From: an uncultured Gammaproteobacteria bacterium | Lineage (GTDB): Bacteria > Patescibacteriota > Microgenomatia > JALYQM01 | Length of the DNA stretch: 64,000 bases | Direction of reading: 5' to 3' | NCBI GenBank assembly: GCA_964535655.1 | Contig: CAZHTP010000006.1 | Span: 1,532 to 65,531, forward strand | Shown: one piece after another, positions 40,113 to 59,653 of the stretch | Layout of the letters: each line of letters opens with the position of its first letter | Numbering within the stretch: position 1 is the first letter of the stretch | The notes under the pieces: model-generated | Told to the model about the DNA's origin: nothing | The model's input: the letters and a program-made list of their open reading frames with translations, nothing else | The model's database searches: none | Made by a program: the position numbers and the translations under genes

Positions 40113-40127
40113 AACAACACGCTAAGG

Positions 40128-43331: not shown

Positions 43332-43345
43332 GGGTCTCACGTCTT

Positions 43346-43412
43346 GTATAAAGTAGTCGTCCTTAAAGCGTATGTAATACATACCTTCTTTATCAGACTT
43401 GGCTGCCCTCAA
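43346..43412 (-). pseudogene. Short fragment homologous to peptidase E (57496-58158), residues about 36-55
   Basis: AKSDKEGMYYIRFKDDY vs AKSDKEGKYYTRFKDYY. About 85% nucleotide identity over about 48 nt. Confidence 0.5.
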
Positions 43413-43782
43413 CTTCTACTTGAAACCCACCATACATCATTCGCTTCATATCCACAGGCATCTGAAAATCTTTTAGTTCTGCCATCTGTTGTCCCATCTC
43501 TTCCATTACTTTCGCATTCACTTCATCACGATGCTCTTTTGATTTAAAGACAATAAATGAAAACCACACTGTCTCGCCGCTAGAAGCTCCCATGACATCA
43601 GGAAAAGCACGTGATTTCTCATCACCCATCTCTGCAGCCTTAAGGTCATTGCCACTACATTCATAGTATGCAAGTGCACCATTTTTGATCCATGAGTCTC
43701 TACCCATCTCAGCCATTTTTTTGTATTCTTCAGACTTATCTTTTGGAACAACGAGTACAAACCCATCCACATATTTTTCCAT
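43393..43782 (-). CDS. DUF1428 family protein
   Basis: YVDGFVLVVPKDK...YYEC...FIVFKSKEHRDEVNAKVM...MKRMMYGGF. Confidence 0.7.
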   Translation of the reverse strand: MEKYVDGFVLVVPKDKSEEYKKMAEMGRDSWIKNGALAYYECSGNDLKAAEMGDEKSRAFPDVMGASSGETVWFSFIVFKSKEHRDEVNAKVMEEMGQQMAELKDFQMPVDMKRMMYGGFQVEVEGSQV

Positions 43783-44018
43783 AATATTGACCTTTCTTTT
43801 ACTAAATCTGAATACAATTACATTATACTAAAAAAACCTAAATGTAGTAACTCAGTTGGCGCTAAAAAAGAGCCATTTCAAAACGGTATCCCGTTTCTGA
43901 ACGGTATCGGTATCCGATGCTCCCCCTAGTAAATACGCTTAGAACTTTTGACTACTCTATATTTCAGGTCCACTACTAGCTCTAGCAAAATAACAAACAT
44001 TTAGAGTAAACTATAATT

Positions 44019-45257
44019 ATGGAAAAAGGTAATGACTTAAATAACCTTGAAACTGGTAATCTGCAACCTCAACAAACCCAATCTGGCACAAAACAACAAT
44101 CAGTTAACGAAACTTTACCACAATCCCCACAACCCCAACCTAGTAAGAAATGGTTAATTCCAGGATTGATTGTCCTCGTCTTACTATCCGTTAGCCTTGC
44201 TGGTTATTTTGACTATCAAAACACTCAACCAAAAAAACAATCTAGTTCAATTCAACCAACACCCATATCTTCTACCCCTCAAGCTATGTCACCCACCAAT
44301 ACCCCTGTAAACAAACCGGAATTAAGCAACAAGCTTATTTCATATACTACAAACGAAGGATTGGTTGTGTCTGACATTGATGGAAATAATAAAAAGGTTG
44401 TTTTTACAGTAAAAGACCCTTATTTTTCTTGGGATTGGAACCCCAAGGCAAATGAAGTTGTTGCAAGTAATGGAATTATGAAAAATTTAGATACTGGCAT
44501 TGAAAAGAAAGTCCCAAGTGGTAGATGTCATAACTGGTCTCCTGATGGGAAAATGATTGCTTACGAAGGTTCGAGTGGTCTTTACTATGTTGAGGTAAGT
44601 AATCTTGCAAGCCCCATCAAAATTTCTGAGACTGGCGAGTTATGTGGTGGCTCCAACAGCGTTTTCCATTGGTCGCCAGATAGCAAATCCCTAATATACC
44701 TGACTAGTAATGGTGCTGGAATTACCAGCGAAGTAATTCACTCTATTATGAAGTATGACATTAACAGTCGGTCTACTACGAAAATATACCAAGATGAAAA
44801 AAGTTCTGGTCAAATTAGAACCCCATCAATTTCACCAGATGGAACAAAAGTGATGTTTATGATGAGTGTTGATAAAGGGAACAATTCTCAATTGACTGAA
44901 AATGTTTACACTATAAACATAGATGGTTCAGGCCTCACTCAACTTACAAATTTAGAGGCAGAAGGTGAATATGGTCAAGGTATAGGTATGCCTATTTTTA
45001 GCACGGATAGTAAGAGCATCTTCTTTGTCAGTAATAGCACTATAAGCAAATATCAAGGTTTAACAATGTTGGATATTCAACCAAAAACGATTACTCGTCT
45101 GGCAAACGAGACTGCAAACGCATATTCGCCCGCAACTGTTTCTCCTGATGGTAAATATGTAGCATATGACGCTTTTGGTAAAGTAGTAGTAGTCAACTTG
45201 CAAACAAAAGACAAAACTCTAATCAGCAACGCAGGGTTTGTGTTGTGGCAAAAATAA
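44019..45257 (+). CDS. TolB-like beta-propeller (PD40/WD40-like repeat) protein with N-terminal TM anchor
   Basis: Repeated WSPDGK / SPDGT / VSPDGKYVAY motifs. Confidence 0.7.
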   Translation: MEKGNDLNNLETGNLQPQQTQSGTKQQSVNETLPQSPQPQPSKKWLIPGLIVLVLLSVSLAGYFDYQNTQPKKQSSSIQPTPISSTPQAMSPTNTPVNKPELSNKLISYTTNEGLVVSDIDGNNKKVVFTVKDPYFSWDWNPKANEVVASNGIMKNLDTGIEKKVPSGRCHNWSPDGKMIAYEGSSGLYYVEVSNLASPIKISETGELCGGSNSVFHWSPDSKSLIYLTSNGAGITSEVIHSIMKYDINSRSTTKIYQDEKSSGQIRTPSISPDGTKVMFMMSVDKGNNSQLTENVYTINIDGSGLTQLTNLEAEGEYGQGIGMPIFSTDSKSIFFVSNSTISKYQGLTMLDIQPKTITRLANETANAYSPATVSPDGKYVAYDAFGKVVVVNLQTKDKTLISNAGFVLWQK

Positions 45258-45371
45258 TTCCTCAAAAATAAGCTCCTTACTTTTTAATCCACAAGATTAA
45301 CTCCAAGCAGTATAATTGCATTGGAGCATAGTAATGAAAAAAGTAACGAAACTACCATAAGTTGACCTGGA

Positions 45372-45969
45372 TTTAGATAAGGTTAGCGATAATAAAAATA
45401 TCACTTTAGAAAAACTGAACCAGTTGTCCCTTGAAGAACGAGTCAAGTTTATTGAGCCAATTGTTCAGGCAAATAATGAGCAGTTTAGTAGACTTGCTAA
45501 TACAATTGCCGAAGTAGCCAACTTTGGTAAAACCTTTAGCAACCTTGCTGCCTCGATAAGATTACCTATTATTGACATTTTAGATAACCTTAAGCTCCCA
45601 GAGTTATCACAGATATCCGATTTTTATAGGGGTATTGATAGCAAAGCTATAAGTTTTGAAAGATATGACCCGCCAGTGACGATTAAAAAATCCAAATCGG
45701 AACTTGAGTTAGATGACGAAAGAAAAAAATTAACAGAAAAAAAGAATAAACTACTTTCCAATAACCAGGATTGGAAGCAAAAAGCTTCGAACTTCTTTTT
45801 AACGCTTATTGATGCTAAAAACAAATTTCTAGAAGCAAATCAGGAAAAACAGTACGCTTCTGTGAGACGTGTATCTTCGAACCTCTTACTACTAAACAAA
45901 AGTGTTATTGTAGAGGACAAAACGCCGTATTCATATCTCTTAAATTATCAATCTGTACTATTGGGCTGA
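45372..45969 (+). pseudogene. 3' remnant of a large serine recombinase (coiled-coil/C-terminal region only)
   Basis: C-terminal about 80 aa and DNA (gcttcgaacttcttttta) nearly identical to the C-terminus of the recombinase at 54903-56443. No catalytic N-terminal domain. Confidence 0.65.
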
Positions 45970-46058
45970 GAGCGTTTCAAAACGGGCGCTTGGCATAGGT
46001 AGATTAGGGGATGATGTAAGGATAAATAAGTAGTTTCACTAGGTGAAGAGAAATATAA

Positions 46059-47013
46059 GATAGAATAATAAGATATGAAAAAAAGTATGGGTGTCCAACA
46101 TGTAAGAGTAACGAAGTAATACGCAAAGGGGTACGAGAAGGAAGAGAACGGTATAAGTGTAAAGGATGTGGCAAATGGTTTTCAATTAACAGGAAGGCAA
46201 AAGTAAGTAATAAGCAACTGTTACTTGAACACATTGATGGGTATTCTTTTCGTACCCTAGCACTTCATCACAACAGTTCAGCGGCAACAATATACAGACA
46301 GTGCAAAAAAGCATGGGAAGAATTACCGCATTGTGCAGACATAACGAGAAAGTACTGCAACCGGTTTAGTGGGACATTACTGGTTGATGGGAAGTATGTA
46401 AAAGTAAAAGGATACGAGCGAGAGATACCCGTGTTGTATGGAGTAGACTACTATACACATGACATACCAACATATTTGTTTTCAATAGGAGAGAATTACC
46501 AAACATGTGATGAATTTTTTCGAGACTTACGGTTACTCAATTATCCACTCCAAAATCTTGTGTGTGATGACAACAAAAATATATACCAAGCGTGTAGTCA
46601 CACATACCCGAAGGTAGTAACACAACTGTGCTTGAATCACTACAAAGAAAATCTAAGAAGGATTCTTCAATCACGAAGACAAGGAAATGAGTACTATGCA
46701 AAATTTATGTATGAAATAACGCAACTATTTGCCAAGAAGAGGTCGCGTGTTGAGTTCAATACACATGCAACAAAGAGTAGATATGCTGTGTGCTCACTGG
46801 TACAACAAGGAAATACCTCAGACAAATAATTTAATAGAGGGATTAAATTCACATTTGGAAGCTCGTTTAAAGACTATCCAAGGTTTTGAAACATTTGACC
46901 ATGCAGATAATTGGTTAAACAGTTATTTCCTCAGAAGAAGGCTCAGACCATTTACTGACTGCAATAAAAAGTTTAAAGAACTAAACGGAAAAATATCTTT
47001 ACAGCAAACATGA
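46059..47013 (+). mobile_element. IS1-family-like DDE transposase gene, disrupted. Frame change near 46780 and no in-frame ATG at the 5' end.
   Basis: N-terminal Zn ribbon CPTC...CKGC, HTH, DDE-like LLVDGKYVKV / VCDDNKN. C-terminal NNLIEGLNSHLEARLK in +1 frame. Confidence 0.6.
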
Positions 47014-47073
47014 GACTGTCAAGTCTTTTGTGTAAATGGGATTTAGATTCATAAATATTTTGTTAACCTCCCC

Positions 47074-47517
47074 TCAAACATAATGGCAAACTGAGAGATA
47101 GCAATAAAGTTTCTCGACAAATAAGTCATTTATTGAATGCACGCTTACATTAACTGACTTATCCTTAAAAGAATACTCCTTTATGCTGTACTCGCAAATA
47201 GTAGAAGGAACAACATAAATATCAATGTGCAATATTTCGTTTTTATTATCATAAAAAGTAATTCGGTTATCCTTATAAAGACTGGATCGATTATGGGCAG
47301 TATCCCCATCGCAGTATAAAAATCTCAATGAATTCTTAGTAAGATATTCTAAGGATTTACTATTCTCAATCGTTAAATCTACATCGTAGGAATAGTTACG
47401 ATTGAATTGAAAGATTTTTACAATGGCAGTCCCTCCTTGCACATGGACAACATCTTTTAAGAGAAAGTCTGAGTAGAGATTAAATAGAAAGCAATTAATA
47501 TATTGTTCTGTTGTCAT
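47074..47517 (-). CDS. Pol-beta-fold nucleotidyltransferase domain protein (AbiEii/minimal NTase-like), possibly truncated
   Basis: QGGTAIVKIF...SYDVDLT motif (GG[ST]x9-13DxD). Ends near the IS. Confidence 0.45.
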   Translation of the reverse strand: MTTEQYINCFLFNLYSDFLLKDVVHVQGGTAIVKIFQFNRNYSYDVDLTIENSKSLEYLTKNSLRFLYCDGDTAHNRSSLYKDNRITFYDNKNEILHIDIYVVPSTICEYSIKEYSFKDKSVNVSVHSINDLFVEKLYCYLSVCHYV

Positions 47518-48308
47518 AATGTATCGATAAAAGCAGTTATTTTATTTAGCGAATTAGAGTCAATTATTCCTTTAGTTTTTTTGGTATATATTAAGTCATA
47601 TAAATTAAAAAAGAATTTTTGAGTACGAATCATTTCTTCAAAACATAAAGGAGAATTATATTCCTGTATAAAAATATCTTCTAACTCTGCTACAAGATTA
47701 GTTAAATGGAAGAATTGAACAACATCAGAAATGCCAACATCTATTCTACAGTCAGTCCAATCAATAAATTTAACCTCATCCTTTTTAGTAAAAATTATAT
47801 TATTACCGCTTAAATCACCGTGAACAATCGATAAAGAATAAGCAACTTGCTCTAATTCAGTCCTTAGCTCAACAAGGTTAAACATGGCCTTATCTATATT
47901 CAAGATCGACTTTACCCATTCTTGGCTATCTCCAACAATTAAGTCAAAAACTAAAATAGGATCGTACTTTTTATCTTTATATATAAAATTATCGAAGTGA
48001 TTATAAGTATTATCGCTTAGAAAAAATCTATGTATTTGCGAGAGCGACTGAGCAATTTGCCTAATCTGATGTTCTGATGGATTAGGGATGGAGTTATACA
48101 TATCACCTTCAATAAACTCTTCAAGGAAGCCATCGGGTGTATAGCTCTCACAATACGGCACATGTCCAGTCTGAATCAAAAGTCGTTGAATAAAATACTC
48201 AGTTTCTTGTACTGATTTATCTTGAACACTTTTATGTACCCAACGCTTACCGTCTTTTGTAATAAATTCGTTATTATGGGGGTTATCAGTAAATATTATT
48301 TTAGCCAT
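47514..48308 (-). CDS. Aminoglycoside-phosphotransferase-like (APH/choline kinase fold) small-molecule kinase
   Basis: SIVHGDLSGNNIIF catalytic loop and FIDWTD motif. Confidence 0.7.
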   Translation of the reverse strand: MAKIIFTDNPHNNEFITKDGKRWVHKSVQDKSVQETEYFIQRLLIQTGHVPYCESYTPDGFLEEFIEGDMYNSIPNPSEHQIRQIAQSLSQIHRFFLSDNTYNHFDNFIYKDKKYDPILVFDLIVGDSQEWVKSILNIDKAMFNLVELRTELEQVAYSLSIVHGDLSGNNIIFTKKDEVKFIDWTDCRIDVGISDVVQFFHLTNLVAELEDIFIQEYNSPLCFEEMIRTQKFFFNLYDLIYTKKTKGIIDSNSLNKITAFIDTL

Positions 48309-48942
48309 TTATTGTGAATTGAGTGTTAAACCATTTCCTGAAATCTTTATATCCATTGTCGTAGTCAATATATTGATAAAAATTGCCGCCAAAGTCTTTC
48401 ATAAATTCTCCATTTTTTGGCTTATCATCAATAAAAAGGGTTTGCTCTGGCTCTATTGAAAGCTTGTCTAAAACGTATCTTAAAAATTTACCATCATTAT
48501 GTGATTTAAGCATCTGATATTTTGAAGAAGAAAAAATATTATCAAAGTGATAATTAAGCTCATTAAGTGGGACAAAAATATTATCAAAGACATCCATATT
48601 ATCTGTAAAGATTGAAACAGTCACGCCATTAGTGCGAAGTTCTTTAGCAAATTTAAACAAGTTACTATTCATTTTCATTTTCTTAACACTATCAATTAAG
48701 CTCTTATTTAAAAAGTCCTCGTCCACTTGGATTTGCTCAGATACAATTGAATGGATATCTCTGTACGATTTATCTCCGATCATCCAAGTCTGTATTAATG
48801 GCCATGCTTCTTTACTAAAAATTTTACTTATAATTTTTTCTTTTATATCTGATTTCTTTGGAGAAATAGTGCTATAAAACCTACCGTTCGACAAAACCCC
48901 ATCAAAATCGAATAATACAGACTTTATGTTATTGTTTTTCAT
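48301..48942 (-). CDS. HAD superfamily hydrolase/phosphatase
   Basis: Motif I VLFDFDGVL. C-terminal FIDDKPKN motif IV. Confidence 0.7.
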   Translation of the reverse strand: MKNNNIKSVLFDFDGVLSNGRFYSTISPKKSDIKEKIISKIFSKEAWPLIQTWMIGDKSYRDIHSIVSEQIQVDEDFLNKSLIDSVKKMKMNSNLFKFAKELRTNGVTVSIFTDNMDVFDNIFVPLNELNYHFDNIFSSSKYQMLKSHNDGKFLRYVLDKLSIEPEQTLFIDDKPKNGEFMKDFGGNFYQYIDYDNGYKDFRKWFNTQFTING

Positions 48943-48946
48943 ATAA

Positions 48947-50194
48947 TTATATATTTAAATTAATGCTACTTATTAATTTATCATAAAAACTATCGAGTTT
49001 TTGACTCATTTGCTGTTCTGTTATCTCCAGTCCTCTTTTTATCGAACTATCCCAAAGAGCATATCTTTGATCTTTTGTCCTATTTTCTAGTTCAGCATCC
49101 CCTGTAAAACTGTTCTTATCTTCAACATAGTTTTTATATTCCATTAATGCAAACGTCATAGCATAATCGAGATTAGCTTTAAGGTAAAAAGAGAGAAAGC
49201 TTCCAATCTTAACTTTTAAAAATGTTTCATTATCTACACGACATCCCGTCTGAGAAAATGCTTGATTTGACATAACTCTAATTTCTTCTAGCGAGTATGG
49301 AATTGATTGATATTTTATATTTTTTAATGAAGGATCTAATCGGTCTTTTGAAGACCCGTATTTAAGATGAGTACATGCAATTCGTGCATCTGGTAAATGA
49401 TAAATAGTATATCCATGATTAATAACATTATGTGCTAATTCTAAGTGTTCCGAGTAGTCATTTGCCCATACTGACAAATCCAAAAAATTGCCTGATTTTA
49501 AAATAGCATCTCTGTTATTTATAGTTGGAACCTTAAAGGTATCTACTTGGAAAGGTTTGAGAATAGTTTTAGTATCATCAAAATAAATATTTTGAGTTGT
49601 TCTGTATTCAGTTGGATAACAGTCAAAATTATGATAAAACCATGCATTTTTAAAGTCTGTTCGTCCAATTTTCTCTATATGCTCATCTCTCACAAAATCG
49701 ACTTGATAATCTTCAATCATTGGAAGATTAATACAGGCAAGATTTTCATCACGACTCTGTAATTCGATGTATGCAATTAGCCCACCCAAAATAAAGTCCT
49801 TTTTATACAAGCAGTCATCATCGACTAGAAAGAAAATATTATTAGAGATCGCATCTATACCTTCTCTACGACTAAAAGAGCATCCTTTTCTAAAATTCCT
49901 AGATATAACTTTAATATTCAACTTATATTTAGAACGAAGCCAGTCAAGATTTTCCAAAGTATAGTCAGTTGAACCATCAACAACTACTAGAAATTCAATG
50001 GTTTGGGAATATGATCCATTAATCAAAGTCAAAAAAGCCCATGTCAATGGGTTGAGCATGAAGTCTTTATTTGGACATCTGTTATATGTCACAAAAATAA
50101 TGCTAAAAGCTAATTCTGCAATTTGAGGATATTTCTGCAATAGACTGACCACTTGTTGGTCAGATAATTGAGGCGATGGAAGATTAGACTGCAT
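48947..50194 (-). CDS. Family 2 glycosyltransferase
   Basis: IIFVTYNR...VVVDGSTD GT2 N-terminal motifs. Confidence 0.7.
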   Translation of the reverse strand: MQSNLPSPQLSDQQVVSLLQKYPQIAELAFSIIFVTYNRCPNKDFMLNPLTWAFLTLINGSYSQTIEFLVVVDGSTDYTLENLDWLRSKYKLNIKVISRNFRKGCSFSRREGIDAISNNIFFLVDDDCLYKKDFILGGLIAYIELQSRDENLACINLPMIEDYQVDFVRDEHIEKIGRTDFKNAWFYHNFDCYPTEYRTTQNIYFDDTKTILKPFQVDTFKVPTINNRDAILKSGNFLDLSVWANDYSEHLELAHNVINHGYTIYHLPDARIACTHLKYGSSKDRLDPSLKNIKYQSIPYSLEEIRVMSNQAFSQTGCRVDNETFLKVKIGSFLSFYLKANLDYAMTFALMEYKNYVEDKNSFTGDAELENRTKDQRYALWDSSIKRGLEITEQQMSQKLDSFYDKLISSINLNI

Positions 50195-50279
50195 TTGTCA
50201 GCATAATAGACTTAAGCTTTGTTGAAGTCAAGGCTATAAATAAGCTATTTCAATATAAAAATCACTGAAATTAAAATTA

Positions 50280-50489
50280 TCAGTTAAACAACTCACTCAT
50301 CCGACATTTCAACACCTGAGAAATTCTAAAAATCGTATAAACTGGAGAGTTCGCTTCGCCTCTCTCAATTCGACTCAACGTCGTGTAGTGAATACCTACT
50401 TTGTGCGAAAGTTCCTCTTGAGACAAGCCCATCTCCTCACGGAACTTCCTAATACGTTTACCCAACTCGATATTAACTTTATACTTCAT
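50280..50489 (-). CDS. XRE/Cro-C1 family HTH transcriptional regulator
   Basis: LGKRIRKFREEMGLSQEELSHKVGIHYTTLSRIERG. Confidence 0.8.
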   Translation of the reverse strand: MKYKVNIELGKRIRKFREEMGLSQEELSHKVGIHYTTLSRIERGEANSPVYTIFRISQVLKCRMSELFN

Positions 50490-50588
50490 TACTTTACAAC
50501 GTAATGAAAGTCGGGTTTAATGAGTATAGCGTCAGACGCTATATTTGAGTTATAATCAAGCGTGAAGAAGAACAAGTCACAATAACCT

Positions 50589-51401
50589 ATGGCACAAACA
50601 CAATACATATGTTCAAACTGCAACCATCTCGGAAAAGGAAAAATAAAATATCAAGGGAGCTTCTTTATCGAGGCAATTTTATGGTTATTCTTCATAATCC
50701 CTGGACTGATTTACTCCGCTTGGCGCAGTAACAGCAAGCAATATATTTGCACCCAATGCGGAAGCAGTCCACTAATTCCAACTAATACGCCTAAGGGTCA
50801 AGAGTTATACAAATCAATCCAAGAAAAACACCCAGATACAATCGCAGCAAACCAACAAGAAGGAATAACAGCTTCAAAATCACGACGCAAAAAGTTCATC
50901 ACTTATATGGGTTTAGCAATATTTTTTATAATCGGGTTCACCACAATTCGAAACCTAGCCACATCACAACCAATAGAAGGCTCACAACAAGTTCAATCAA
51001 TCACGCTGACAAATACACCTAGTCCAACAACATTACTTATCGATATTCCCTATCAAACATATCCAACTCAAATAGATAATGAAGTAAATACAGATTTTGA
51101 AACAAAAAATATAATAATCGATCCAAAATATGTAAATCAAACGGATTTAACCGCATTAGGAGAAAAACTTAAAAACGAAACCAAAAATCAATCGCATGTC
51201 TTTATTTCTATTTACGACAATACTAAGGCTGCTCAACTACGCGACAAGGCAACAAGAGATGAACTAAACAAAACTGACGCAACATTTTATGACAAACATT
51301 TTGTCGGGCAATACACAAAAAATACAGCAACCGGCTTTCATCAGTTTCAAATATATATCAACGGCTTAAGCGGTAAAAATCAAAAGACGATTACTTACTA
51401 A
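50589..51401 (+). CDS. LITAF-like membrane-inserted zinc-ribbon protein with long Thr/Gln-rich C-terminal region
   Basis: CSNC - 23-residue hydrophobic stretch - CTQC, the LITAF/SIMPLE architecture. Confidence 0.45.
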   Translation: MAQTQYICSNCNHLGKGKIKYQGSFFIEAILWLFFIIPGLIYSAWRSNSKQYICTQCGSSPLIPTNTPKGQELYKSIQEKHPDTIAANQQEGITASKSRRKKFITYMGLAIFFIIGFTTIRNLATSQPIEGSQQVQSITLTNTPSPTTLLIDIPYQTYPTQIDNEVNTDFETKNIIIDPKYVNQTDLTALGEKLKNETKNQSHVFISIYDNTKAAQLRDKATRDELNKTDATFYDKHFVGQYTKNTATGFHQFQIYINGLSGKNQKTITY

Positions 51402-51550
51402 CTTCACCAATTATCAACCAGCATACACAGCTACAGAAGCTCTTAGGCCATTCGTTTAGTAGTTTTAACAAAATAAAATTTCATAATAAGTTAAAGTAAT
51501 TATCTTATGATCATCTCAGAGCAATATTTAAGTCTCTGAAAACTCCTGCC

Positions 51551-51750
51551 TAAAAAGGGGGTTTCTAGAAAAAACAATCTGTGTCTGAAGAAAGACGATA
51601 CTACAAACATCTCACATCAAATTGAAAATTTACGAAAACTCGAACTCCAAACGATAATTTTCGGAAAAAACTGAATTGTTTCTACAAACAACCATCTTAC
51701 ACTTTTCTGCGAAAACTCGAGCGTAAAAATGGGGTTTCCTCAAAAAAAAT
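51551..51750 (+). repeat. Two pairs of about 20-nt direct repeats upstream of 51749 gene
   Basis: aaaaagggggtttctagaaaaaa vs aaaaatggggtttcctcaaaaaaaa. cgaaaactcgaac vs cgaaaactcgagc. Confidence 0.3.
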
Positions 51751-52435
51751 GAAATGTTTTTACCATGATAAAATCAAAAATATACAAGACAAAATGACAA
51801 ACCCAACCGAAAAAGAAAAATCTCACATAGAGTTTTTCGGCATTATATTTGGCAAGGGATTCCCAGCCTCAAATAGTCGACTCTACCCTCACGATAGACT
51901 ATTAGCGTTATTAAATGTGAATCCTAAAATGGATCACGAAATTTATAATTATTGCAAAAACCACCTATTTATACCTCGCGACGTTACCAACGGACTAGTT
52001 CAAGGCTTTATAAAAGAACAAGCCGAAATCAAGAAAGCCGTCGAAAAACTTATGTCCAATCAACCTACAAAACAATCACTCAGTAAAATAACCAAAAATA
52101 TAAGTACGATCAAGCAAGTTAAAGGCGCTTTGCCAAAAAGTTCTTTGGTAAACTACAACTTAGCAATAGGAGAAAAAGATGGCGATGACGATTATTTAGC
52201 TGAAATGGTAGAAGATAACGTCGAGACAATCATATCTCACCACAAAGGTACTATTGCATCAATCTGGGAGGATATCGCTAACATGCAAATAACTCAAAAA
52301 ATACCAATCAATTGCCTCGAATGCACAAAATACTTTATTCCAACCGGCAGAGGACGCACGCAGCTTTATTGTAGTCAGAAATGTTCCAACAATGCCAACC
52401 ATCTGAAACGATACGCAGAAAAAAAGATCACTTAA
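51749..52435 (+). CDS. Hypothetical protein with C-terminal zinc ribbon
   Basis: CLEC...CSQKC. Confidence 0.4.
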   Translation: MKCFYHDKIKNIQDKMTNPTEKEKSHIEFFGIIFGKGFPASNSRLYPHDRLLALLNVNPKMDHEIYNYCKNHLFIPRDVTNGLVQGFIKEQAEIKKAVEKLMSNQPTKQSLSKITKNISTIKQVKGALPKSSLVNYNLAIGEKDGDDDYLAEMVEDNVETIISHHKGTIASIWEDIANMQITQKIPINCLECTKYFIPTGRGRTQLYCSQKCSNNANHLKRYAEKKIT

Positions 52436-52514
52436 CGTAAAATTTTTTCCTAAGCTCAAAATCTCCCTGTTATTCTCCCTCATCACTTCCAAGTAGGCAT
52501 CCTACAATGCCACT

Positions 52515-52754
52515 ATGACAACACAAGATACATACAAAACAAAAGATATTTTCGAAGCCTCATGGATTCACTCACAAGACAATCCTCTTATTCGACTTGA
52601 ACCAGACGGAAAATATTTCTGGTTTGTATTCCTCAATTGCGAAACCTGTCAAAATCTCTCCTCTGCATATTGGTCTCAAAAAGCAACCGGTAACATTAAG
52701 CAATTTGTGAATAGTCTCAAAACTGTTAAAGATTTAGTCTTTTCACAAAAGTAA
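52515..52754 (+). CDS. Hypothetical small protein
   Basis: 79-aa ORF in a co-oriented phage-like gene string. Confidence 0.3.
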   Translation: MTTQDTYKTKDIFEASWIHSQDNPLIRLEPDGKYFWFVFLNCETCQNLSSAYWSQKATGNIKQFVNSLKTVKDLVFSQK

Positions 52755-52799
52755 CAAATGGTTGGATAGAACACAAAAAATACACAAGGAGACAAAAGT

Positions 52800-54461
52800 A
52801 TGAATGAAGATAAAAACACGCCTATCGAGAAAAGTGGTCAATTTGAAAATAGCTCATCCAAAAAAGTATTTGCACAAATGATGGATATCACTACAGAATC
52901 CAACGCTGAACTCTTTTTAGATGAGCAGAGCGAACCCCACATAGCTTTTCCAGAAAAGCCTATCGGAGCATATCGCTTAGAAGGAACTCATTTCAAACAA
53001 TGGATGGCTGCCAAATTTTGGGGAAAACACCAAAATGGATTCGCCAATGAAACATGGTCAGCAATAATAAATACCCTATCAGGCAAGGCTCTCCACGAAA
53101 AAAATATCCTACACCAGTACAACAGGGTCGCTAAAATCAACAATACAATCTATTACGACCTTGGAGATGACCAAAATATAGTAAAGATTACCTCAACCGA
53201 ATGGAATATACAAAAAACATGTCCAGTAAAGTTTAAACGTCATAAGCATCAAAAAATACAAGTTCTACCTATAATTGGTGGGCAAATCCAAGACATACTC
53301 AAATACGTCAACATACAAAACAACAATGACCAGCTTTTATTTCTCACATACTTAGTAATCATACTAATTCCCGATATACCACGAGTACTCTTAGTTATCA
53401 CGGGCAACCAAGGAGCAGCAAAAAGCACTACTCTACGACTAGTACGTTCACTGATCGATCCAAGTGAAGCTGAGTTATTGCATCTCTCCAATGATCCCAA
53501 CACTCTAGCCCAAATAGCTAACCAACATTATTGCCTGTATTTTGATAATCTCTCACAGCTTCGAAGTGACACCTCTGATATCTTTTGTGAACTCATAACT
53601 GGAACATCTTTTACTAAAAGAAAGCTTTATACTGACGATGGCGAAATCATCCACACCCAAAAATCTGCCATAGGGGTCACAGGCATAAATCAAATAGCTG
53701 AAAAACCAGATCTTCTTGATCGATCACTCATACTCTCCCTTGAACGAATACCAACAGAACAACGACTTGAAGAAAGTAAATTCTGGGAAGCATTTAACGA
53801 CGAAAAGCCGTATATCCTCGGAGCGATATTTACCCTATTAAGTAAAAGTCTTCAAACAATCAACTCGTTTGAGCTAAAGCATAAACCACGCATGGCTGAT
53901 TATGCCAAATTTGCAGCAGCCGCATCCCTATCGATGGGACATACTCAAGAAAATTTTATTGAAGCTTTCAAACAAAATATAGCTCGACAAAACGAGGCAG
54001 CTATAGATTCTTCACCATTAGCACAAGTAATTATCCATTTCATGAAGGATAAAAGCTTATGGTCAGGTCATAGCACAGATTTATACAAAGAACTATCTAA
54101 GGTAGCCCAGAGTTTACAAATCGATAACCAAAGCTTTCCGCGAGGTGAGAACTGGTTAAAAAGAAGGATTAACTCCATTAGGATAAATCTAGAAGCTCTC
54201 GGAATCGAAGTTACTTATCATCGAGACAGCACAGCAAACTCGATTACTTTAAAAAAACATATCGATCAAAATACTTCCACTACTCCCATACCACCATTTC
54301 TCACTCCTGACTGCAATAACATCCCTGTTGATATTTCCAATAATACCAACATGCAAAAAGGCGCTTGCAACAATCAGGATGATGGCATGGAAGCAGTGGA
54401 AGTAAAAACACTACCAATTGACGAAGAGGAACTCGCCGAGATCTTATCAGAATTAGAATAG
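52800..54461 (+). CDS. VirE / phage-plasmid primase-helicase-like P-loop ATPase (SF3-type)
   Basis: Walker A ITGNQGAAKSTT. Walker B-like CLYFDN. 553 aa. Confidence 0.6.
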   Translation: MNEDKNTPIEKSGQFENSSSKKVFAQMMDITTESNAELFLDEQSEPHIAFPEKPIGAYRLEGTHFKQWMAAKFWGKHQNGFANETWSAIINTLSGKALHEKNILHQYNRVAKINNTIYYDLGDDQNIVKITSTEWNIQKTCPVKFKRHKHQKIQVLPIIGGQIQDILKYVNIQNNNDQLLFLTYLVIILIPDIPRVLLVITGNQGAAKSTTLRLVRSLIDPSEAELLHLSNDPNTLAQIANQHYCLYFDNLSQLRSDTSDIFCELITGTSFTKRKLYTDDGEIIHTQKSAIGVTGINQIAEKPDLLDRSLILSLERIPTEQRLEESKFWEAFNDEKPYILGAIFTLLSKSLQTINSFELKHKPRMADYAKFAAAASLSMGHTQENFIEAFKQNIARQNEAAIDSSPLAQVIIHFMKDKSLWSGHSTDLYKELSKVAQSLQIDNQSFPRGENWLKRRINSIRINLEALGIEVTYHRDSTANSITLKKHIDQNTSTTPIPPFLTPDCNNIPVDISNNTNMQKGACNNQDDGMEAVEVKTLPIDEEELAEILSELE

Positions 54462-54687
54462 TATAAAACAGAATTATTGAGTAAATAAAAGTTGAGTCAG
54501 ATATGAGAAAACCAACCATCACATCTACTATAAAACTTCAAGTTATCCTTGAAAAACGGCTCAATCGAAAAGTAACTGAGCAAGAAATTCAAGAGGCCTA
54601 CAACACACTAATGGATTTTGCTTTCGCAATCTACGACTTAACCTCTGAGAGAAAAACAGCCCCAACCTAATAAACAAAATCCAGTTC

Positions 54688-54906
54688 TTGCGGCTCGATG
54701 ATGTAATGTTATTTAATGATGACAAAGGTTTAAGTATGAAAAAAGGTTTAATAACTATTAAAGAAGCCGCAGAACTCTTCGGAGTTCATCCATCTACGCT
54801 CAGACGATGGGACAAAATTGGTAAATTAAAAGCAACCAGACATCCCATGAGCAATTATCGTTTATACAGAATAATTGATGTAGAAAAAATAACGGAGAAA
54901 ATATGA
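54688..54906 (+). CDS. Excisionase/MerR-like HTH DNA-binding protein
   Basis: ITIKEAAELFGVHPSTLRRWDKIGKL. Confidence 0.65.
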   Translation: MRLDDVMLFNDDKGLSMKKGLITIKEAAELFGVHPSTLRRWDKIGKLKATRHPMSNYRLYRIIDVEKITEKI

Positions 54907-56443
54907 ATACCCCTTTACGAGAATATTATCTGACATACGAACGAGTCAGTACCGACGACCAAGTAAAAACACAATCGTGTAACGATCAGAAATTAGTGAA
55001 TGACCGGTATATAAATTCAAATGGCTGGAAACTTGCAGACAACGCTGATTACCGAGACGAAGGTATACCCGGGAGCACCTTGGAGAGACCAAGCTTACAG
55101 GACTTAATCATTAGATGTAGCGAAGACAAAACTATAGTTGCGGTAGTAATAACAGAGTCCGACCGTTTAGCCCGAGGCAACATAAGTTATATATTTATAC
55201 GCGAAGCACTTAAAAATGTGGCGTAAAAGTCATCGCAGTAACTCAACCAATGATCGACGATAGCGATGAAGGTGAAATGCTTGGTGAAATAATTGGCGCA
55301 GTCAATGGATTCCTCTCAAAAATGACACGCCGTAAATCGATGCGCGCACTAGATGAGAAAGCCGCTCGCGGTTGGTACCCATCTCTTGCCCCTGTTGGAT
55401 ATATAAATGTTAATATCGGCACAGAAGATACTCCTGAACGAATTATCAAAATTAACGAAGAACAAGCTCCCTATCTACGCCAAATACCTCACTTATATAA
55501 CCAAGGTTATGGATACGCAGAAATAGCAATTCAACTACATAATCAAGGTCTACGAAGCCTCAGAGGGAATAAAGTCTCACATAACGAAATTCGTAAAATA
55601 TTATTCAGCGATTTCTATCTTGGAGAATTTGAATGGCGTGGTAAACGTTACAAGGGTAATCATACCCCTCTCTTTGAGTTCTTCGAAGTCCAAAAAGCGC
55701 GCCAACGCTCAAAAGAAAAAGGCCATCTCCACCCAACAGAAAAATTCCGTGACAAGTTCATTTTTAAACGCCTCAACTTTCACTGTGGCGAGTGCCTTGA
55801 GTGCAAGGTTACGGCGGAACTCAAAATAAAACACTATAAAAAACGCACCGCCGAATACATACTCTACCACTGTTCCAAGTCCAGAGGCGGGTGGAAAACC
55901 TGTAGGCAAGGAATTATTAATCAAGACGATCTCATTATCCAGTTCGCAGAAAAAGTAGTAAAACCAATTGCAGTTGATGAAGAGCTAGCCGAATTTATGC
56001 TCGAAGAAATGGATCATGAATTCTCCAACAAAAAAGAAGAGCAAGAAAAACTTTCAATAGCAATTAACCGACGTTTAGGGCAATTAGACACCGAACTGAA
56101 AAATCTATTTGAAATGCGTATGCGCGGCCAAATATATAGCATGGGCGACAAGTCAGCTGACGAAGTATACGAAGGTTACCGTATGGAAAAAGAAAATGAA
56201 CGCAAACGACTAGTTATAAGCAAAGAAAAGCTACTCCAAAGCAATGGGGACTGGAAAAAGAAGGCTTCGAACTTCTTTTTAATGCTCAATGACGCCGTAA
56301 ATAGATTTTTAAATGCTGCACAGGAAAAACAATTCAATTTTCTAAACAAAGTAACTTCGAACTTGTTACTACTGGATAAAAACATCATTGTAACGCACAA
56401 ATTTCCATTTTCAGAGTTACAAAAATGCCCTCTTATCTATTAA
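54903..56443 (+). CDS. Large serine recombinase (integrase) interrupted by a -1 frameshift in an A5 run near 55213-55217
   Basis: N-terminal YERVSTDDQ resolvase catalytic motif. Reading ...ALKKCGVKVIAVTQP is restored by adding one A. Recombinase domain plus coiled-coil C-terminus. Confidence 0.8.
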
Positions 56444-56606
56444 TTAGCGATTGACTCCCGAGCCCAAGCGATAATATAAAATTCAACTCAAAGCTAGAAC
56501 GAGCTACAAACAATATCCTTAATGTCTTCAAAGATACCACATATGCTATACAACTGAAAATGAGATGGGAGTCAATAAAAAACATACACAGCAAAGCTAC
56601 ACAAAA

Positions 56607-57506
56607 CTACTGAAGCACTTGTTGCTCATCGTCAATATAGAAGTTGAGAGGTTTCGCCTGCATATTCTCACAATAGTATATAACCTGACCTGTAATACGC
56701 TCCCCATGTTTAACCCTATACACTAAAGAACCAACTCTAATTGCAATATTATTAGGATGAATTACACCGATGTTTCCCTCACATGACACGGTAGGAATCC
56801 GATTCAAATGTGTGACATTAGATAACTCAGTTACACTTAGTATTTCCATATTAAGGGAAAATTTACACAGAAAACCATAATATTTTGCTACAGCTCTACC
56901 TTGGTTCGTAAATGTAAACACAAGCTCCCTTTGAGAATCATCACCTTTGATTGGGTTTAAACTCAATGACAAGTTTAGTAACGGCCTCTGCCTGCGTCCA
57001 AACATATCTTCAAGGTCAAAATGTTCTAATTTATAGAACCCTTCGGTACTACGCTTGTAATACTCTCTATCAGCCAACACTGCTCTATGCGGTGTTTTAT
57101 CACTACGAGGAATTAAACATTTAACGTAACCTGCACTGGATTTCTTTGAAACATAAATAGGTTCAATTCGGACATCATCTACAAAAGGCTGCACTGCATT
57201 TATGAGAATCTTTTTTAAGCTCTTAATAAATTCATCCAAGTCTTCAATGGGTTTTAAACTCTTTGCCGTCTCATTTTTTCCCCGCTCTAATCCCCAAACT
57301 AAAACACCCCCGTCAGAATTAGCAAAACCAGATAATGACTTAGAGAAATTCTTCTTATCATCGTCACTCAATTTTCCGTCTCGCCTGTCAGACTTTTCTT
57401 TAAACTCCAAATACAAGTCTTCTCGGACTTTATCTTTTACTAACCTCCGTAAATCTAATTGTGAAGACAGCGATTGGTAGAATCGAAATATGTCATCAAC
57501 TTGCAT
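56607..57506 (-). CDS. AlbA_2 / Schlafen-like (divergent AAA, putative DNA-binding) domain protein
   Basis: FANSDGGVLVWGLERG motif. Last gene of the minus-strand operon. Confidence 0.55.
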   Translation of the reverse strand: MQVDDIFRFYQSLSSQLDLRRLVKDKVREDLYLEFKEKSDRRDGKLSDDDKKNFSKSLSGFANSDGGVLVWGLERGKNETAKSLKPIEDLDEFIKSLKKILINAVQPFVDDVRIEPIYVSKKSSAGYVKCLIPRSDKTPHRAVLADREYYKRSTEGFYKLEHFDLEDMFGRRQRPLLNLSLSLNPIKGDDSQRELVFTFTNQGRAVAKYYGFLCKFSLNMEILSVTELSNVTHLNRIPTVSCEGNIGVIHPNNIAIRVGSLVYRVKHGERITGQVIYYCENMQAKPLNFYIDDEQQVLQ

Positions 57507-58158
57507 AGTTATTTAATTCAAACACCTCACCATAAAATTCAATTTTGTCATCATGAACCACAATTCCACTACCATCAGGGCAACCATAAATCGTATTAGT
57601 AGCTCCACGAACAAACTCCTCTACATATCGTCCTTTTGTGTCCGTCACGAAATGTGGTACAAACTCAAAGTTAACTAAACCTAGTCCTGTAAAATCTGAC
57701 AGGCCTAGTTCATTAAGTGCATCAAAGTCACCTTTATGCTGATGATAGATAGCAGTAGTACGTATTGTCGGAGTCATAATCATAGAACCTGCACTCACAC
57801 CAATTAATGTCGTGTTGTCTCTACGGGCATAATCTTTCAATTTATCCATCAATCCACGGACTTTAAGGTTATAAAGAAAACGAAAAGTGTTACCACCAGA
57901 TAGATATATAACATCAGACAAAAACAGGTTGTGTATTGCATTAGGGTCAAAGTCTTCATCAACGTCGAAGTAGGTATAGTTGTGGAAACCGTACTTAGAA
58001 TAATAATCCTTAAAGCGTGTGTAATACTTACCTTCCTTATCAGATTTTGCAGGAATAAAGGCAATGGAAGCATCTATACTACCCACCATTTGAACAAATG
58101 CTACGTCCAACTTTTCACTAACTGAATTATCACCACCGCTATACAGGACCAAATTCAT
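57496..58158 (-). CDS. pepE: Peptidase E (S51 family alpha-aspartyl dipeptidase)
   Basis: SGGNTFRFL, SAGS, PTIRTT, DFDALNELG, VPHF line up with the PepE catalytic triad regions. Confidence 0.8.
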   Translation of the reverse strand: MNLVLYSGGDNSVSEKLDVAFVQMVGSIDASIAFIPAKSDKEGKYYTRFKDYYSKYGFHNYTYFDVDEDFDPNAIHNLFLSDVIYLSGGNTFRFLYNLKVRGLMDKLKDYARRDNTTLIGVSAGSMIMTPTIRTTAIYHQHKGDFDALNELGLSDFTGLGLVNFEFVPHFVTDTKGRYVEEFVRGATNTIYGCPDGSGIVVHDDKIEFYGEVFELNNYAS

Positions 58159-58165
58159 ATATTTT

Positions 58166-58774
58166 CTACTCCATCAAATGGGCAGTATCATTAACTACAA
58201 CTTCGGAATATACACCGCTTTCATATTCAAATATTGTCACAGAAGCATTTTCAAAGTCATACTTCAAACTCACTTCTTTAGGTGTATCTTTTAAGATAGG
58301 CATTAAACCTCTCAATGCTCCTCCATGAGTAACAATTGCAATTGCATAAACTTGCTTAGCCTCTCCACCTGCGACTATGTTATCAACACACTGTTTCAGT
58401 CGTGTTTCCATTTGTTGCCATGATTCGCCAGAAGGTGGAATAAAAGTATACCTTTGTTGGATATTCATTGTGTCCAATTCGTTTTTTATTTCTGTCCAAG
58501 TTCTACCTCCCCATTCACCCCAATTACGTTCATGCAATGCATTTGTAGGATTATTTTTAATACCTAATCCTACTGCGATAATTTCAGCTGTTTGTTTAGC
58601 TCTGTTTTCATTGGAAGAATAGAGCATTTGAACACCGTGGTCTTTACAAACTCGTATAAGCTTCTGTGCTTGAAGCAGTCCCAACTCACTTAAACCAGCG
58701 TCATCATTTAAAGTATGCATCGAACCAGATGCATTAACTTCAGTTTGTCCGTGGCGGATAAGTAATAACTTCAT
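58166..58774 (-). CDS. Histidine phosphatase (phosphoglycerate mutase-like) family protein
   Basis: LIRHGQTEVN catalytic RHG motif. Downstream His in TWEIVTHG. Confidence 0.8.
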   Translation of the reverse strand: MKLLLIRHGQTEVNASGSMHTLNDDAGLSELGLLQAQKLIRVCKDHGVQMLYSSNENRAKQTAEIIAVGLGIKNNPTNALHERNWGEWGGRTWTEIKNELDTMNIQQRYTFIPPSGESWQQMETRLKQCVDNIVAGGEAKQVYAIAIVTHGGALRGLMPILKDTPKEVSLKYDFENASVTIFEYESGVYSEVVVNDTAHLME

Positions 58775-58789
58775 GTTTAAACTACCAAA

Positions 58790-59651: not shown

Positions 59652-59653
59652 AA

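What the first reader, a model, noticed from the sequence alone, without database searches (positions are those of the whole stretch)
45372..56443. Composite mobile region: recombinase 3' remnant and intact-but-frameshifted serine recombinase as direct repeats bracketing IS and cargo
The ORF at 45424-45969 encodes only the C-terminal ~180 aa of a large serine recombinase. It shares near-identical protein and DNA segments (for example gcttcgaacttcttttta) with the C-terminus of the full recombinase at 54903-56443, on the same strand. Between them lie an IS1-like transposase, a nucleotidyltransferase/kinase/HAD/GT2 cassette, and a repressor/VirE-ATPase/excisionase module. This pattern suggests successive insertions of related integrative elements at one site, with decay of the older integrase.
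Basis: seen in the sequence. Interest (0 to 1): 0.55.

Follow-up and report, generated by a model that had tools for sequence, protein, structure and literature searches.

The report
Stacked, decayed serine-recombinase mobile elements
This stretch of a groundwater CPR (Microgenomates) genome holds wrecked integrative elements: a 640-bp fusion of an older element's first and last genes, next to a younger, nearly complete element whose integrase is frameshifted, which is an ordinary pattern of mobile-element stacking and decay.

Summary
The ORF at 45424-45969 shares real homology with the C-terminus of the serine recombinase at 54903-56443. That homology covers only 79 aa at 57% identity (154 nt at 70%), so it is not near-identical.

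The ORF is not a 180-aa recombinase remnant. It is a chimera.
- Its first ~95 codons, plus 30 upstream codons carrying a TAA stop, are the 5' half of "geneX". GeneX is an element-borne regulator of ~240 aa.
- Its last ~88 codons are the 3' end of a second recombinase of the same family, from a different lineage.

So it is a deletion relic of older element(s). To its right lie a degraded IS256-like IS (not IS1), a low-GC cargo operon, and a typical family core: repressor, DUF5659, primase-like ATPase, excisionase-like protein and recombinase. The recombinase is broken by a one-base deletion in an A-run.

In six other lineages this recombinase family abuts tRNA-Asn. In the window it does not, so the right junction is non-canonical.

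Tandem accretion with integrase decay is supported and has known precedents (Dehalococcoides ssrA islands, tycheposons, ICESt1/CIME). Adjacency of the relic and the younger element rests on assembly across a 280-nt repeat. Interest is modest.

The parts
44019..45257 (+). PD40/Tricorn-like beta-propeller gene, the chromosomal left flank
   Evidence: Pfam PD40. Orthologue P0079 in Daviesbacteria contig JACQIX010000038 is also followed by a geneX fragment. More distant orthologues (L033/L034 at 70%, L035 at 56%) have no geneX downstream.
45292..45333 (+). Conserved geneX leader (TATAAT box and GGAG Shine-Dalgarno). Homology to geneX loci with other left neighbours starts near 45292, which gives the approximate left edge of the inserted DNA.
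   Evidence: Alignment A3, tblastx L012 against window, start contexts.
45334..45711 (+). GeneX 5' fragment (codons 1 to ~126 of a ~240-255-aa family). It is a pseudogene with an in-frame TAA at 45358-45360 where relatives have CAA.
   Evidence: tblastn with P0068 matches 45334-45756 at 76%. Alignment A1. Six-frame translation.
45700..45712 (+). Fusion junction (…KSKSELEL|DDERKKL…) between geneX-derived and LSR-derived sequence
   Evidence: GeneX homology ends and LSR homology begins here. The junction lies inside Logan contig L001, which is 100% identical to the window.
45703..45969 (+). 3' remnant (last ~88 codons plus stop) of a second family-A large serine recombinase. It comprises the end of the coiled coil and the C-terminal helices and beta-hairpin.
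   Evidence: BLASTP E=3e-25 to the window LSR. It is 40-59% identical to the C-termini of ~40 family members. Mapped onto the AlphaFold model of P0002, residues 427-506.
46006..47074 (+). Degraded IS256-like insertion sequence. The transposase reading frame runs 46074-47013 with at least two frame disruptions. The left end is uncertain (46006 or 46041). No target-site duplication was seen.
   Evidence: NCBIfam NF048019 IS256 Zn-variant 49 bits and IS1/IS1595 Zn domain 35 bits. Pfam Transposase_mut. Frames. Ends. Logan contigs stop at 46794 and restart at 47075.
47074..50194 (-). Low-GC (~30%) cargo operon: AbiEii-like nucleotidyltransferase, APH/choline-kinase-like kinase, HAD phosphatase and GT2 glycosyltransferase. 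It runs in the same direction as the HTH_3 gene and downstream of it.
   Evidence: Pfam, PADLOC AbiEii weak, composition. No homologues in any related locus.
50280..50489 (-). HTH_3 (Cro/CI-type) repressor, the start of the conserved family-A element core
   Evidence: Pfam E=7e-16. Homologous HTH_3 genes sit in the same position in L002, L022, L023 and L024.
50589..54670 (+). Element core genes: 270-aa zinc-ribbon/membrane protein, 228-aa protein, DUF5659 protein (52515-52754), 553-aa P-loop primase/helicase-like protein (52800-54461) and a 55-aa protein
   Evidence: Pfam DUF5659 weak. PHROG 47 DNA primase region E=4.8e-6 for the 553-aa protein. The 55-aa and DUF5659 homologues are conserved upstream of family-A LSRs.
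54688..54906 (+). MerR/HTH_17 excisionase-like protein (candidate recombination directionality factor). Its stop overlaps the LSR start.
   Evidence: Pfam MerR E=3.8e-15 and HTH_17. PHROG excisionase families. 50-70% identical homologues lie directly upstream of every family-A LSR.
54903..56443 (+). Family-A large serine recombinase. It is full length but broken by a 1-nt deletion in the A-run at 55212-55216. The catalytic motif YERVSTDDQ is present.
   Evidence: The frameshift is reproduced in independent Logan contig L036.
56444..56606 (.). Non-canonical right junction. There is no tRNA-Asn, no tRNA fragment and no group I intron. The LSR tail (…QKCPLIY*) departs from the family's tRNA-encoded tail.
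   Evidence: ARAGORN found none. Rfam at E<=10 found none. Local alignment to tRNA-Asn is not above shuffles. Tails compared.

Best explanation
The region is a stack of decayed site-specific integrative elements in a Microgenomates (Daviesbacteria-like) genome.

(1) Positions 45292-45969 are a relic. The promoter and 5' ~126 codons of geneX are joined at ~45700-45712 to the last ~88 codons of a family-A large serine recombinase gene. GeneX encodes an element-borne protein with a C-terminal OmpR/ToxR-like winged-helix domain. In related elements it lies at or near the end opposite the integrase. The simplest origin is an internal deletion. That deletion removed everything between the first and last genes of one older element, or of a tandem pair of older elements. 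The fusion carries a nonsense codon and lacks every folded or catalytic domain of both parents, so it is a pseudogene.

(2) To its right sits a degraded IS256-like IS without a target-site duplication. This probably marks a further deletion or rearrangement.

(3) Positions 47075-56443 are a younger family-A element. It has cargo downstream of a Cro/CI-type repressor, then divergently DUF5659, a primase-like ATPase, a MerR-type excisionase and the recombinase. It would integrate and excise by serine-recombinase attP x attB exchange, with the MerR protein as directionality factor. It is now disabled by a 1-nt deletion in the recombinase and is cut off from the family's normal target, the 3' side of tRNA-Asn(GTT).

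Shown: the homologies, the chimera, the frameshift, and the family's tRNA-Asn association elsewhere.
Inferred: the deletion origin, the order of events, the role of the IS, and the mechanism of mobility.
For: Chimera:
- The geneX family (P0068-P0075, ~240 aa) aligns to ORF aa 1-95 and to the 30 upstream codons.
- The LSR C-terminus aligns to aa 94-172 or further.
- GeneX and LSRs are otherwise unrelated.

Pseudogene status:
- There is a TAA at codon 9, the Shine-Dalgarno is present only at the 45334 ATG, and there is none at the 45424 TTG.
- The AlphaFold model of geneX places the only confident domain (OmpR-like wHTH, residues ~150-255) in the part that was lost.
- The retained LSR part maps to residues 427-506, after the catalytic, recombinase and zinc-ribbon domains.

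GeneX and an LSR at opposite ends of compact elements:
- The order geneX, small ORF, SpoVG, ~380-aa protein, (HTH_17), LSR is seen in L006-L011, L016, L018 and L019.
- L004/L027 shows PD40, geneX', IS3 fragment, cargo, HTH_3, xis, LSR-A, tRNA-Asn.

Independent second case: L012 has geneX(1-~206) fused in frame to the C-terminus of a different LSR family.

The relic is not a copy of the resident LSR: it is 57% identical to it and 59% to P0008.

Family-A target: the LSR stop overlaps tRNA-Asn(GTT) on the opposite strand in L002, L003, L004, L022 and L024-26, and in L023 where the tRNA carries a group I intron.

Frameshift and fusion junction are real: Logan contigs L001 and L036 are 100% identical to the window over them.

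GeneX is inserted DNA: PD40 orthologues in L033-L035 lack it.
Against: - No att sites, tRNA fragment or direct repeats could be identified at any junction, so element boundaries are inferred only from homology breaks.
- GeneX was found intact only with a different LSR family (B-type). With family A it appears only as fragments (window, L004). The relic may therefore span two different older elements rather than one.
- Both known geneX::LSR fusions are in frame (window and L012). By chance this has probability ~1/9, which leaves some room for a selected product.
- Adjacency of the relic and the younger element depends on the assembly across 46795-47074.
- The absence of tRNA-Asn next to either LSR copy is unexplained.
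Confidence: 0.72

Rival explanations
1. One reading: the left ORF is simply the C-terminal ~180 aa of an older integrase. Together with the intact integrase it forms direct repeats bracketing a composite mobile unit (IS plus cargo plus module).
For: Same strand, significant C-terminal homology and a shared 18-mer.
Against: Only 79-88 aa are LSR-like, and the remaining ~95 aa are geneX. The repeat is 154 nt at 70% identity, too diverged for homologous recombination and irrelevant to serine-recombinase site recognition. tblastn finds no further LSR fragments upstream.
Confidence: 0.05
2. The relic is a still-mobilizable mini-element (CIME-like). It keeps both element ends (attL and attR) and can be excised or accreted in trans by a family-A recombinase plus excisionase. 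The tandem arrangement then reflects accretion-mobilization.
For: It retains the outermost genes of both ends. A second such geneX::LSR relic exists in L012. Accretion and CIMEs are documented for other integrative elements, including LSR-driven Dehalococcoides ssrA islands (PMC3146451).
Against: No att sequences are recognisable. Downstream of the relic there are only 36-70 nt before the IS and no tRNA-Asn. The only resident recombinase is frameshifted.
Confidence: 0.1
3. The fusion ORF is a functional gene, for example a decoy or inhibitor that uses the recombinase's C-terminal coiled-coil segment to bind and modulate family-A recombinases.
For: 181 codons are open in an AT-rich genome. Both known geneX::LSR fusions are in frame. 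The coiled coil of LSRs mediates subunit and RDF interactions (general knowledge of LI, Bxb1 and phiC31 integrases).
Against: There is a nonsense codon 24 codons after the only start with a Shine-Dalgarno, and the TTG start lacks one. The protein cluster has a single member. The geneX part kept is the low-confidence N-terminus. L012's version carries several frameshifts.
Confidence: 0.05
4. The juxtaposition is an assembly artefact: the relic and the younger element were joined through a repeated IS segment and are not neighbours in the cell.
For: Two independent Logan contigs of the same run end at 46794 and start at 47075, leaving a 280-nt IS 3' segment unbridged. There is no target-site duplication around the IS. 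The transposase frame break coincides with the contig end.
Against: The MAG assembler bridged it. Logan contigs break at any repeated k-mer, so a break is not evidence of chimerism. L004 shows the same overall order, geneX', IS, cargo, HTH_3 … LSR-A, on one 67-kb contig. The fusion junction itself lies inside a single Logan contig, so the relic is real either way.
Confidence: 0.08

Closest known systems
Dehalococcoides ssrA-specific genomic islands (DsiB large serine recombinase; McMurdie et al. 2011, PMC3146451)
   Same: Large serine recombinase elements inserted at the 3' side of a small structured-RNA gene. Several islands are stacked in tandem. Some lack integration modules and are interpreted as CIME/accretion products. 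Cargo is variable.
   Different: The target there is tmRNA with a 20-bp direct repeat. Here the family target is tRNA-Asn and no repeat is detectable. DsiB comes with a second small recombinase, DsiA, whereas here there is a MerR-type excisionase. In the window the tRNA junction is missing altogether.
Tycheposons of Prochlorococcus (Hackl et al., bioRxiv 10.1101/2020.12.28.424599)
   Same: tRNA-associated integrative elements with integrase, excisionase, regulator, primase/helicase and cargo. Successive integrations push older elements inward and leave fragmented integrases.
   Different: 910 of 937 use tyrosine recombinases and are flanked by partial tRNAs. Here the enzyme is a large serine recombinase, no partial tRNAs are found, and the host is a CPR bacterium.
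ICESt1/ICESt3 and CIMEs of Streptococcus thermophilus (Pavlovic et al. 2004, cited in PMC3146451)
   Same: Deletion derivatives that keep element ends, sitting in tandem with a complete element (accretion).
   Different: Those use tyrosine integrases with recognisable att repeats, and mobilization has been shown experimentally. Here the att sites are unidentified and nothing has been tested.
Characterised phage large serine integrases (TP901-1, SPbeta SprA, A118/LI, Bxb1, phiC31)
   Same: Domain order of resolvase catalytic domain, recombinase domain, then zinc ribbon with inserted coiled coil. A small separate directionality factor is present.
   Different: Identity is at most 26%. There is an extra C-terminal helical/beta subdomain. 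The reading frame ends inside the target tRNA gene. Known examples mostly target protein-coding genes (my knowledge).

Membership tests
Large serine recombinase (for 54903-56443) | N-terminal resolvase-type catalytic domain with serine nucleophile | tested here: met
   PF00239 E=1e-12. Motif YERVSTDDQ is present. TP901-1 integrase catalytic domain E=1.3e-9.
Large serine recombinase (for 54903-56443) | Recombinase domain followed by a zinc ribbon with an inserted coiled coil | tested here: met
   PF07508 E=2.8e-11. Cys motifs CGEC…HC…C are present. The AlphaFold model of 65%-identical P0002 shows beta-rich residues 290-355 and then long paired helices 359-445.
Large serine recombinase (for 54903-56443) | Uninterrupted reading frame | tested here: not met
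   One-base deletion in the A-run at 55212-55216. It is reproduced in Logan contig L036.
Large serine recombinase (for ORF 45424-45969) | Catalytic, recombinase and zinc-ribbon domains | tested here: not met
   No Pfam hit. Only residues equivalent to 427-506 of ~517 are present. The N-terminal 95 aa belong to geneX.
Family-A tRNA-Asn-associated LSR elements of Microgenomates (defined here) | More than 55% identity to P0002-P0040 across the full length, preceded by MerR/HTH_17 and 55-75-aa genes | tested here: met
   58-67% identity over 97-99% of the length. xis and 55-aa homologues are conserved.
Family-A tRNA-Asn-associated LSR elements of Microgenomates (defined here) | LSR 3' end overlapping tRNA-Asn(GTT) on the opposite strand | tested here: not met
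   Present in L002, L003, L004, L022, L023 and L024-26. Absent after both window copies.
IS1 family insertion sequence | Match to the IS1 transposase model over its catalytic region | tested here: not met
   NF033558 scores 34 bits against a cut-off of 100, over the N-terminal Zn finger only.
IS256 family (Zn-binding variant) | Match to the family transposase model above its cut-off, with terminal inverted repeats and a target duplication | tested here: inconclusive
   NF048019 scores 49 bits against a cut-off of 150. PF00872 scores 20.9 against 21. Inverted repeats are weak and there is no TSD.
Cis-mobilizable element (CIME) / tandem accretion | Element remnant flanked by functional attL and attR, adjacent to a complete element in the same orientation | tested here: inconclusive
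   Orientation and adjacency are met. att sites are not identifiable. Function is not testable with these tools.
SSV-type split integrase (attP inside the int gene) | Integration leaves an N-terminal int part at one end and the C-terminal part at the other | tested here: not met
   The right-hand LSR keeps its own complete C-terminus. All family members are contiguous.

The most novel reading that the evidence does not exclude
Family-A recombinases are a CPR-specific clade of serine integrases dedicated to the 3' flank of tRNA-Asn, and their reading frame is completed by the tRNA gene itself. The geneX::recombinase fusions (window and L012, both in frame) would then not be random wreckage. They would be a recurrent class of miniature end-to-end derivatives that stay mobilizable in trans or encode a coiled-coil decoy regulating integration.
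Probability: 0.1. Interest if true: 0.55.

Novelty: new member of a known kind. Interest (0 to 1): 0.3.

Why it matters
As a single locus it matters little. It shows that small CPR genomes accumulate and erode integrative elements in the same way as better-studied bacteria.

The by-product is more useful. It is a coherent family of large serine recombinases (58-67% identical across Microgenomates). In six of six other lineages examined, the family sits against tRNA-Asn, with a conserved MerR-type partner. This gives a testable natural attB for elements of an uncultivated phylum. It is also a possible source of new site-specific integrases and of genetic tools for CPR bacteria.

Tried and rejected
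- **att core repeats.** I searched the junction windows 45258-45430, 45950-46045, 47060-47110, 50190-50290 and 56430-56610. No exact match exceeded 10 nt and none stood out convincingly from shuffles. The 16/19 match of 45385-45403 with 56467-56485 is reached by 1.5% of shuffles. It lies inside uninterrupted geneX coding sequence, so it is not a junction.
- **tRNA-Asn remnants.** Searches after the relic, after the LSR and upstream of geneX gave nothing above shuffles. ARAGORN and Rfam were negative.
- **Duplicated tRNA pieces in related loci.** I looked at the far ends of the elements and found none.
- **Empty site.** PD40 orthologues without geneX exist (L033-L035), but none shows PD40 next to tRNA-Asn. 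The window has no rpoD, dnaG or GIY-YIG synteny with L004's right flank.
- **GeneX as a general LSR C-terminal homologue.** This would have made the chimera a natural variant. It is rejected because there was no significant BLASTP match.
- **Other collections.** GeneX was not found in IMG/VR. GeneX has no PHROG, Pfam or NCBIfam family.
- **Programmed frameshifting in the LSR.** This is considered unlikely. The -1 frame has a TAA at 55211-55213, and T AAA AAT is not a canonical slippery heptamer (sequence inspection).
Full report
**What is at the coordinates**

ORF listing shows a 181-codon ORF at 45424-45969 on the + strand. On the same strand is a recombinase split into 54903-55226 and 55250-56443. 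Pfam assigns Resolvase to the first piece (E=1e-12) and Recombinase to the second (E=2.8e-11).

The split is a single missing base in the A-run at 55212-55216. Restoring one A gives a 513-aa protein reading …REALKKCGVKVIAVTQPMIDD…, exactly as in its homologues. The same frameshift is present in an independent Logan assembly contig of run SRR8893623, L036, which is 100% identical to window 47075-60137. It is therefore not an artefact of the MAG assembly. A programmed shift is unlikely, because the -1 frame has a TAA at 55211-55213 and there is no slippery heptamer.

**The claimed similarity**

The similarity is real but weaker than described.
- BLASTP gives 45/79 identities (57%), E=3e-25, between ORF residues 94-172 and residues 312-390 of the 55250 ORF.
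- At DNA level there are 154 nt at 70% identity, 45768-45921 against 56248-56401.
- The quoted 18-mer is shared exactly, at 45784 and 56264.
- tblastn with the whole recombinase finds no other fragment in the window.
- An AlphaFold model of homologue P0002 (pLDDT 84) places the shared part at residues 427-506. That covers the end of the second coiled-coil helix, three short helices and a beta-hairpin. The similarity is therefore not just low-complexity coiled coil.

**The left ORF is a chimera**

A search of 5.8 billion proteins with the 181-aa ORF found a family of ~237-255-aa proteins without any Pfam domain (P0068-P0075). They match only its first ~95 residues, at 48-80% identity. I call this family geneX.

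These proteins also match 30 codons upstream of the TTG that the ORF lister chose. The true start is the ATG at 45334, which has a GGAG Shine-Dalgarno and a TATAAT box. Codon 9 is TAA where relatives have CAA.

GeneX homology stops at …KSKSELEL and recombinase homology starts at DDERKKL…, that is at 45700-45712. GeneX and serine recombinases are otherwise unrelated.

A model of geneX (P0068) has one confident domain, at residues ~150-255. This domain resembles OmpR/PhoB/ToxR winged-helix DNA-binding domains, with TM-scores of 0.6-0.73 relative to target. That domain is missing from the window's fragment.

The fusion junction lies within Logan contig L001, which is 100% identical to window 40080-46794, so the junction is real. 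The product has a nonsense codon, has no ribosome-binding site at the internal TTG, and carries no folded domain of either parent. I read it as a pseudogene.

**Where geneX and the recombinase normally sit**

Contexts of geneX relatives show compact elements ordered geneX, small ORF, SpoVG-like, ~380-aa protein, (HTH_17), optional cargo, then a large serine recombinase of another family ("B", 494 aa). These lie next to tRNA genes and are often stacked behind another recombinase-ending element (L006-L011, L016, L018, L019).

The window's recombinase belongs to a well-populated family ("A"). It has 44 proteins at 53-67% identity, named by their sources as Woesebacteria, Levyibacteriota, Microgenomates or Daviesbacteria.

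In every other family-A lineage I could inspect, the recombinase stop codon lies inside tRNA-Asn(GTT) on the opposite strand (L002, L003, L004, L022, L024-26). In L023 the tRNA carries a group I intron. These recombinases are always preceded by a MerR/HTH_17 gene and a 55-75-aa gene. Further upstream are DUF5659 and a divergent HTH_3 repressor. The window's 50280-56443 has exactly this core.

**The closest relative locus**

L004/L027 is Daviesbacteria contig JACQIX010000038. It shares with the window the order Fic, then PD40, then intergenic leader, then geneX 5' fragment. Nucleotide identities are 84% (PD40 3' end), 72% (intergenic) and 80% (geneX fragment).

There geneX stops at residue ~106 against a truncated IS3. 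It is followed by defence-like cargo, HTH_3, xis, LSR-A and tRNA-Asn.

More distant PD40 orthologues (L033/L034, L035) have no geneX after them. GeneX is therefore inserted DNA that probably predates the split of the two Daviesbacteria-like genomes.

**Interpretation**

The 45292-45969 segment is what remains of older integrated element(s) after an internal deletion joined the first gene to the last. It retains geneX's promoter and 5' half, plus the recombinase's last 88 codons.

The retained recombinase piece is as far from the resident recombinase (57%) as from other family members (best 59%, P0008). It is therefore a separate lineage, not a duplication.

An independent parallel exists in L012. 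There geneX (to residue ~206, with frameshifts) runs in frame into the C-terminal ~110 residues of a family-B recombinase.

Intact geneX was only seen with family B. The window's relic may therefore span a B-type and an A-type element that once sat in tandem.

**The IS and the cargo**

Between relic and younger element lies a ~1.05-kb IS remnant.
- Its transposase reading frame (46074-47013) needs at least two frame corrections.
- It has an IS1/IS1595-type zinc finger but matches IS256 Zn-variant and Mutator models best, all below their cut-offs.
- Terminal repeats are weak and no target duplication is visible. This fits IS-associated deletion.

The cargo is GT2, HAD, kinase and AbiEii-like nucleotidyltransferase, with ~30% GC against ~38% for the window. 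It runs in the same direction as the HTH_3 gene and downstream of it, a position where other family-A elements also carry variable genes. It has no homologue in any related locus.

**What does not fit**

- Neither recombinase copy in the window is followed by tRNA-Asn, a fragment of it, or an intron. The resident recombinase's last residues (…QKCPLIY) depart from the family's tRNA-encoded tail.
- No att-like repeats were found. This is expected for serine recombinases, which need only a 2-bp crossover, but it leaves boundaries defined by homology breaks alone.
- Two Logan contigs stop at 46794 and restart at 47075. The physical linkage of relic and younger element therefore rests on the MAG assembler's path through a 280-nt repeated IS segment. 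L004's similar order on one contig makes the linkage plausible but does not prove it.

**Comparison with known systems**

Stacking of site-specific elements at a small-RNA gene, with decay of older integrases and integrase-less derivatives, is documented in three systems.
- Dehalococcoides ssrA islands, which also use a large serine recombinase (PMC3146451).
- Prochlorococcus tycheposons (bioRxiv 10.1101/2020.12.28.424599).
- ICESt1/CIME accretion (cited in PMC3146451).

Characterised phage serine integrases are at most 26% identical. Searches of the held literature for serine recombinases or integrative elements in CPR bacteria returned nothing specific.

**Verdict**

The thing itself is an ordinary, decayed composite of integrative elements. 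It is a new member of a known kind, not a new mechanism.

The most interesting by-product is the family-level regularity: a tRNA-Asn-associated serine integrase clade in Microgenomates whose reading frame ends inside the tRNA. That regularity lies outside the finding as given.

Noticed in passing
L002 11524-11598; L003 5146-5218; L004 11524-11596; L022 10149-10225; L024 11535-11608: In every other lineage examined, the family-A recombinase ORF ends inside tRNA-Asn(GTT) on the opposite strand. The last ~4-13 codons are encoded by the tRNA's 3' end. This suggests a tRNA-Asn-specific clade of large serine integrases in Microgenomates.
   Followed up: partly
L023 11562-11788 (- strand): The tRNA-Asn next to this family-A recombinase is interrupted in its anticodon loop by a group I intron (Rfam RF00028, 61.7 bits, E=3e-15). 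ARAGORN therefore missed the tRNA.
   Followed up: partly
L012 5146-6025: A second, independent fusion of geneX (to residue ~206, with frameshifts) running in frame into the C-terminal part of a different (B-type) serine recombinase. The same truncated 105-aa product (P0070) is found in three samples.
   Followed up: partly
L006 7202-8890 vs L007 3817-5415; L018 7464-7580: Two recombinases that are only 28% identical overall share their last ~40 residues at 83-100% identity. The same tail-coding sequence occurs in L018 without any recombinase upstream. The ORF tails thus seem to be supplied by the target DNA beyond the crossover, at the left end of another element.
   Followed up: no
window 46795-47074: Independent Logan contigs of the same run stop at 46794 and restart at 47075. 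This 280-nt 3' part of the transposase gene behaves as a repeat, and its start coincides with the frame break in the transposase.
   Followed up: partly
window 45385-45403 and 56467-56485: A 16/19 direct match (AGCGATAATAAAAATATCA / AGCGATAATATAAAATTCA) between the geneX 5' coding region and the sequence 24 nt after the recombinase stop. Only 1.5% of shuffles reach it. GeneX is continuous across it, so it is probably chance.
   Followed up: yes
window 41030-42124 (-): A Fic-domain protein matches the PADLOC SoFic defence model strongly (E=8e-94). Together with a PIN gene (42894-43331) and a Schlafen/AlbA_2 gene (56607-57506), it suggests the surroundings are a variable defence and accessory region.
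   Followed up: no
window 47074-50194 (-): The cargo operon (GT2, HAD, choline/aminoglycoside-kinase-like, AbiEii-like nucleotidyltransferase) has ~30% GC against ~38% for the window and no homologue in any related element. It may be a surface-glycan or small-molecule modification cassette.
   Followed up: no
P0068 residues ~150-255 (geneX family); L007 6526-7239: The element gene geneX has no Pfam, PHROG or NCBIfam family. Its predicted C-terminal domain folds like OmpR/PhoB/ToxR winged-helix DNA-binding domains. Its N-terminal 120 residues are predicted with low confidence.
   Followed up: partly
L003 (contig CAYSOG010000021.1): A contig labelled 'uncultured Gammaproteobacteria' carries a family-A recombinase 63% identical to the Microgenomates ones, next to tRNA-Asn. 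The label may be a binning or taxonomy error.
   Followed up: no
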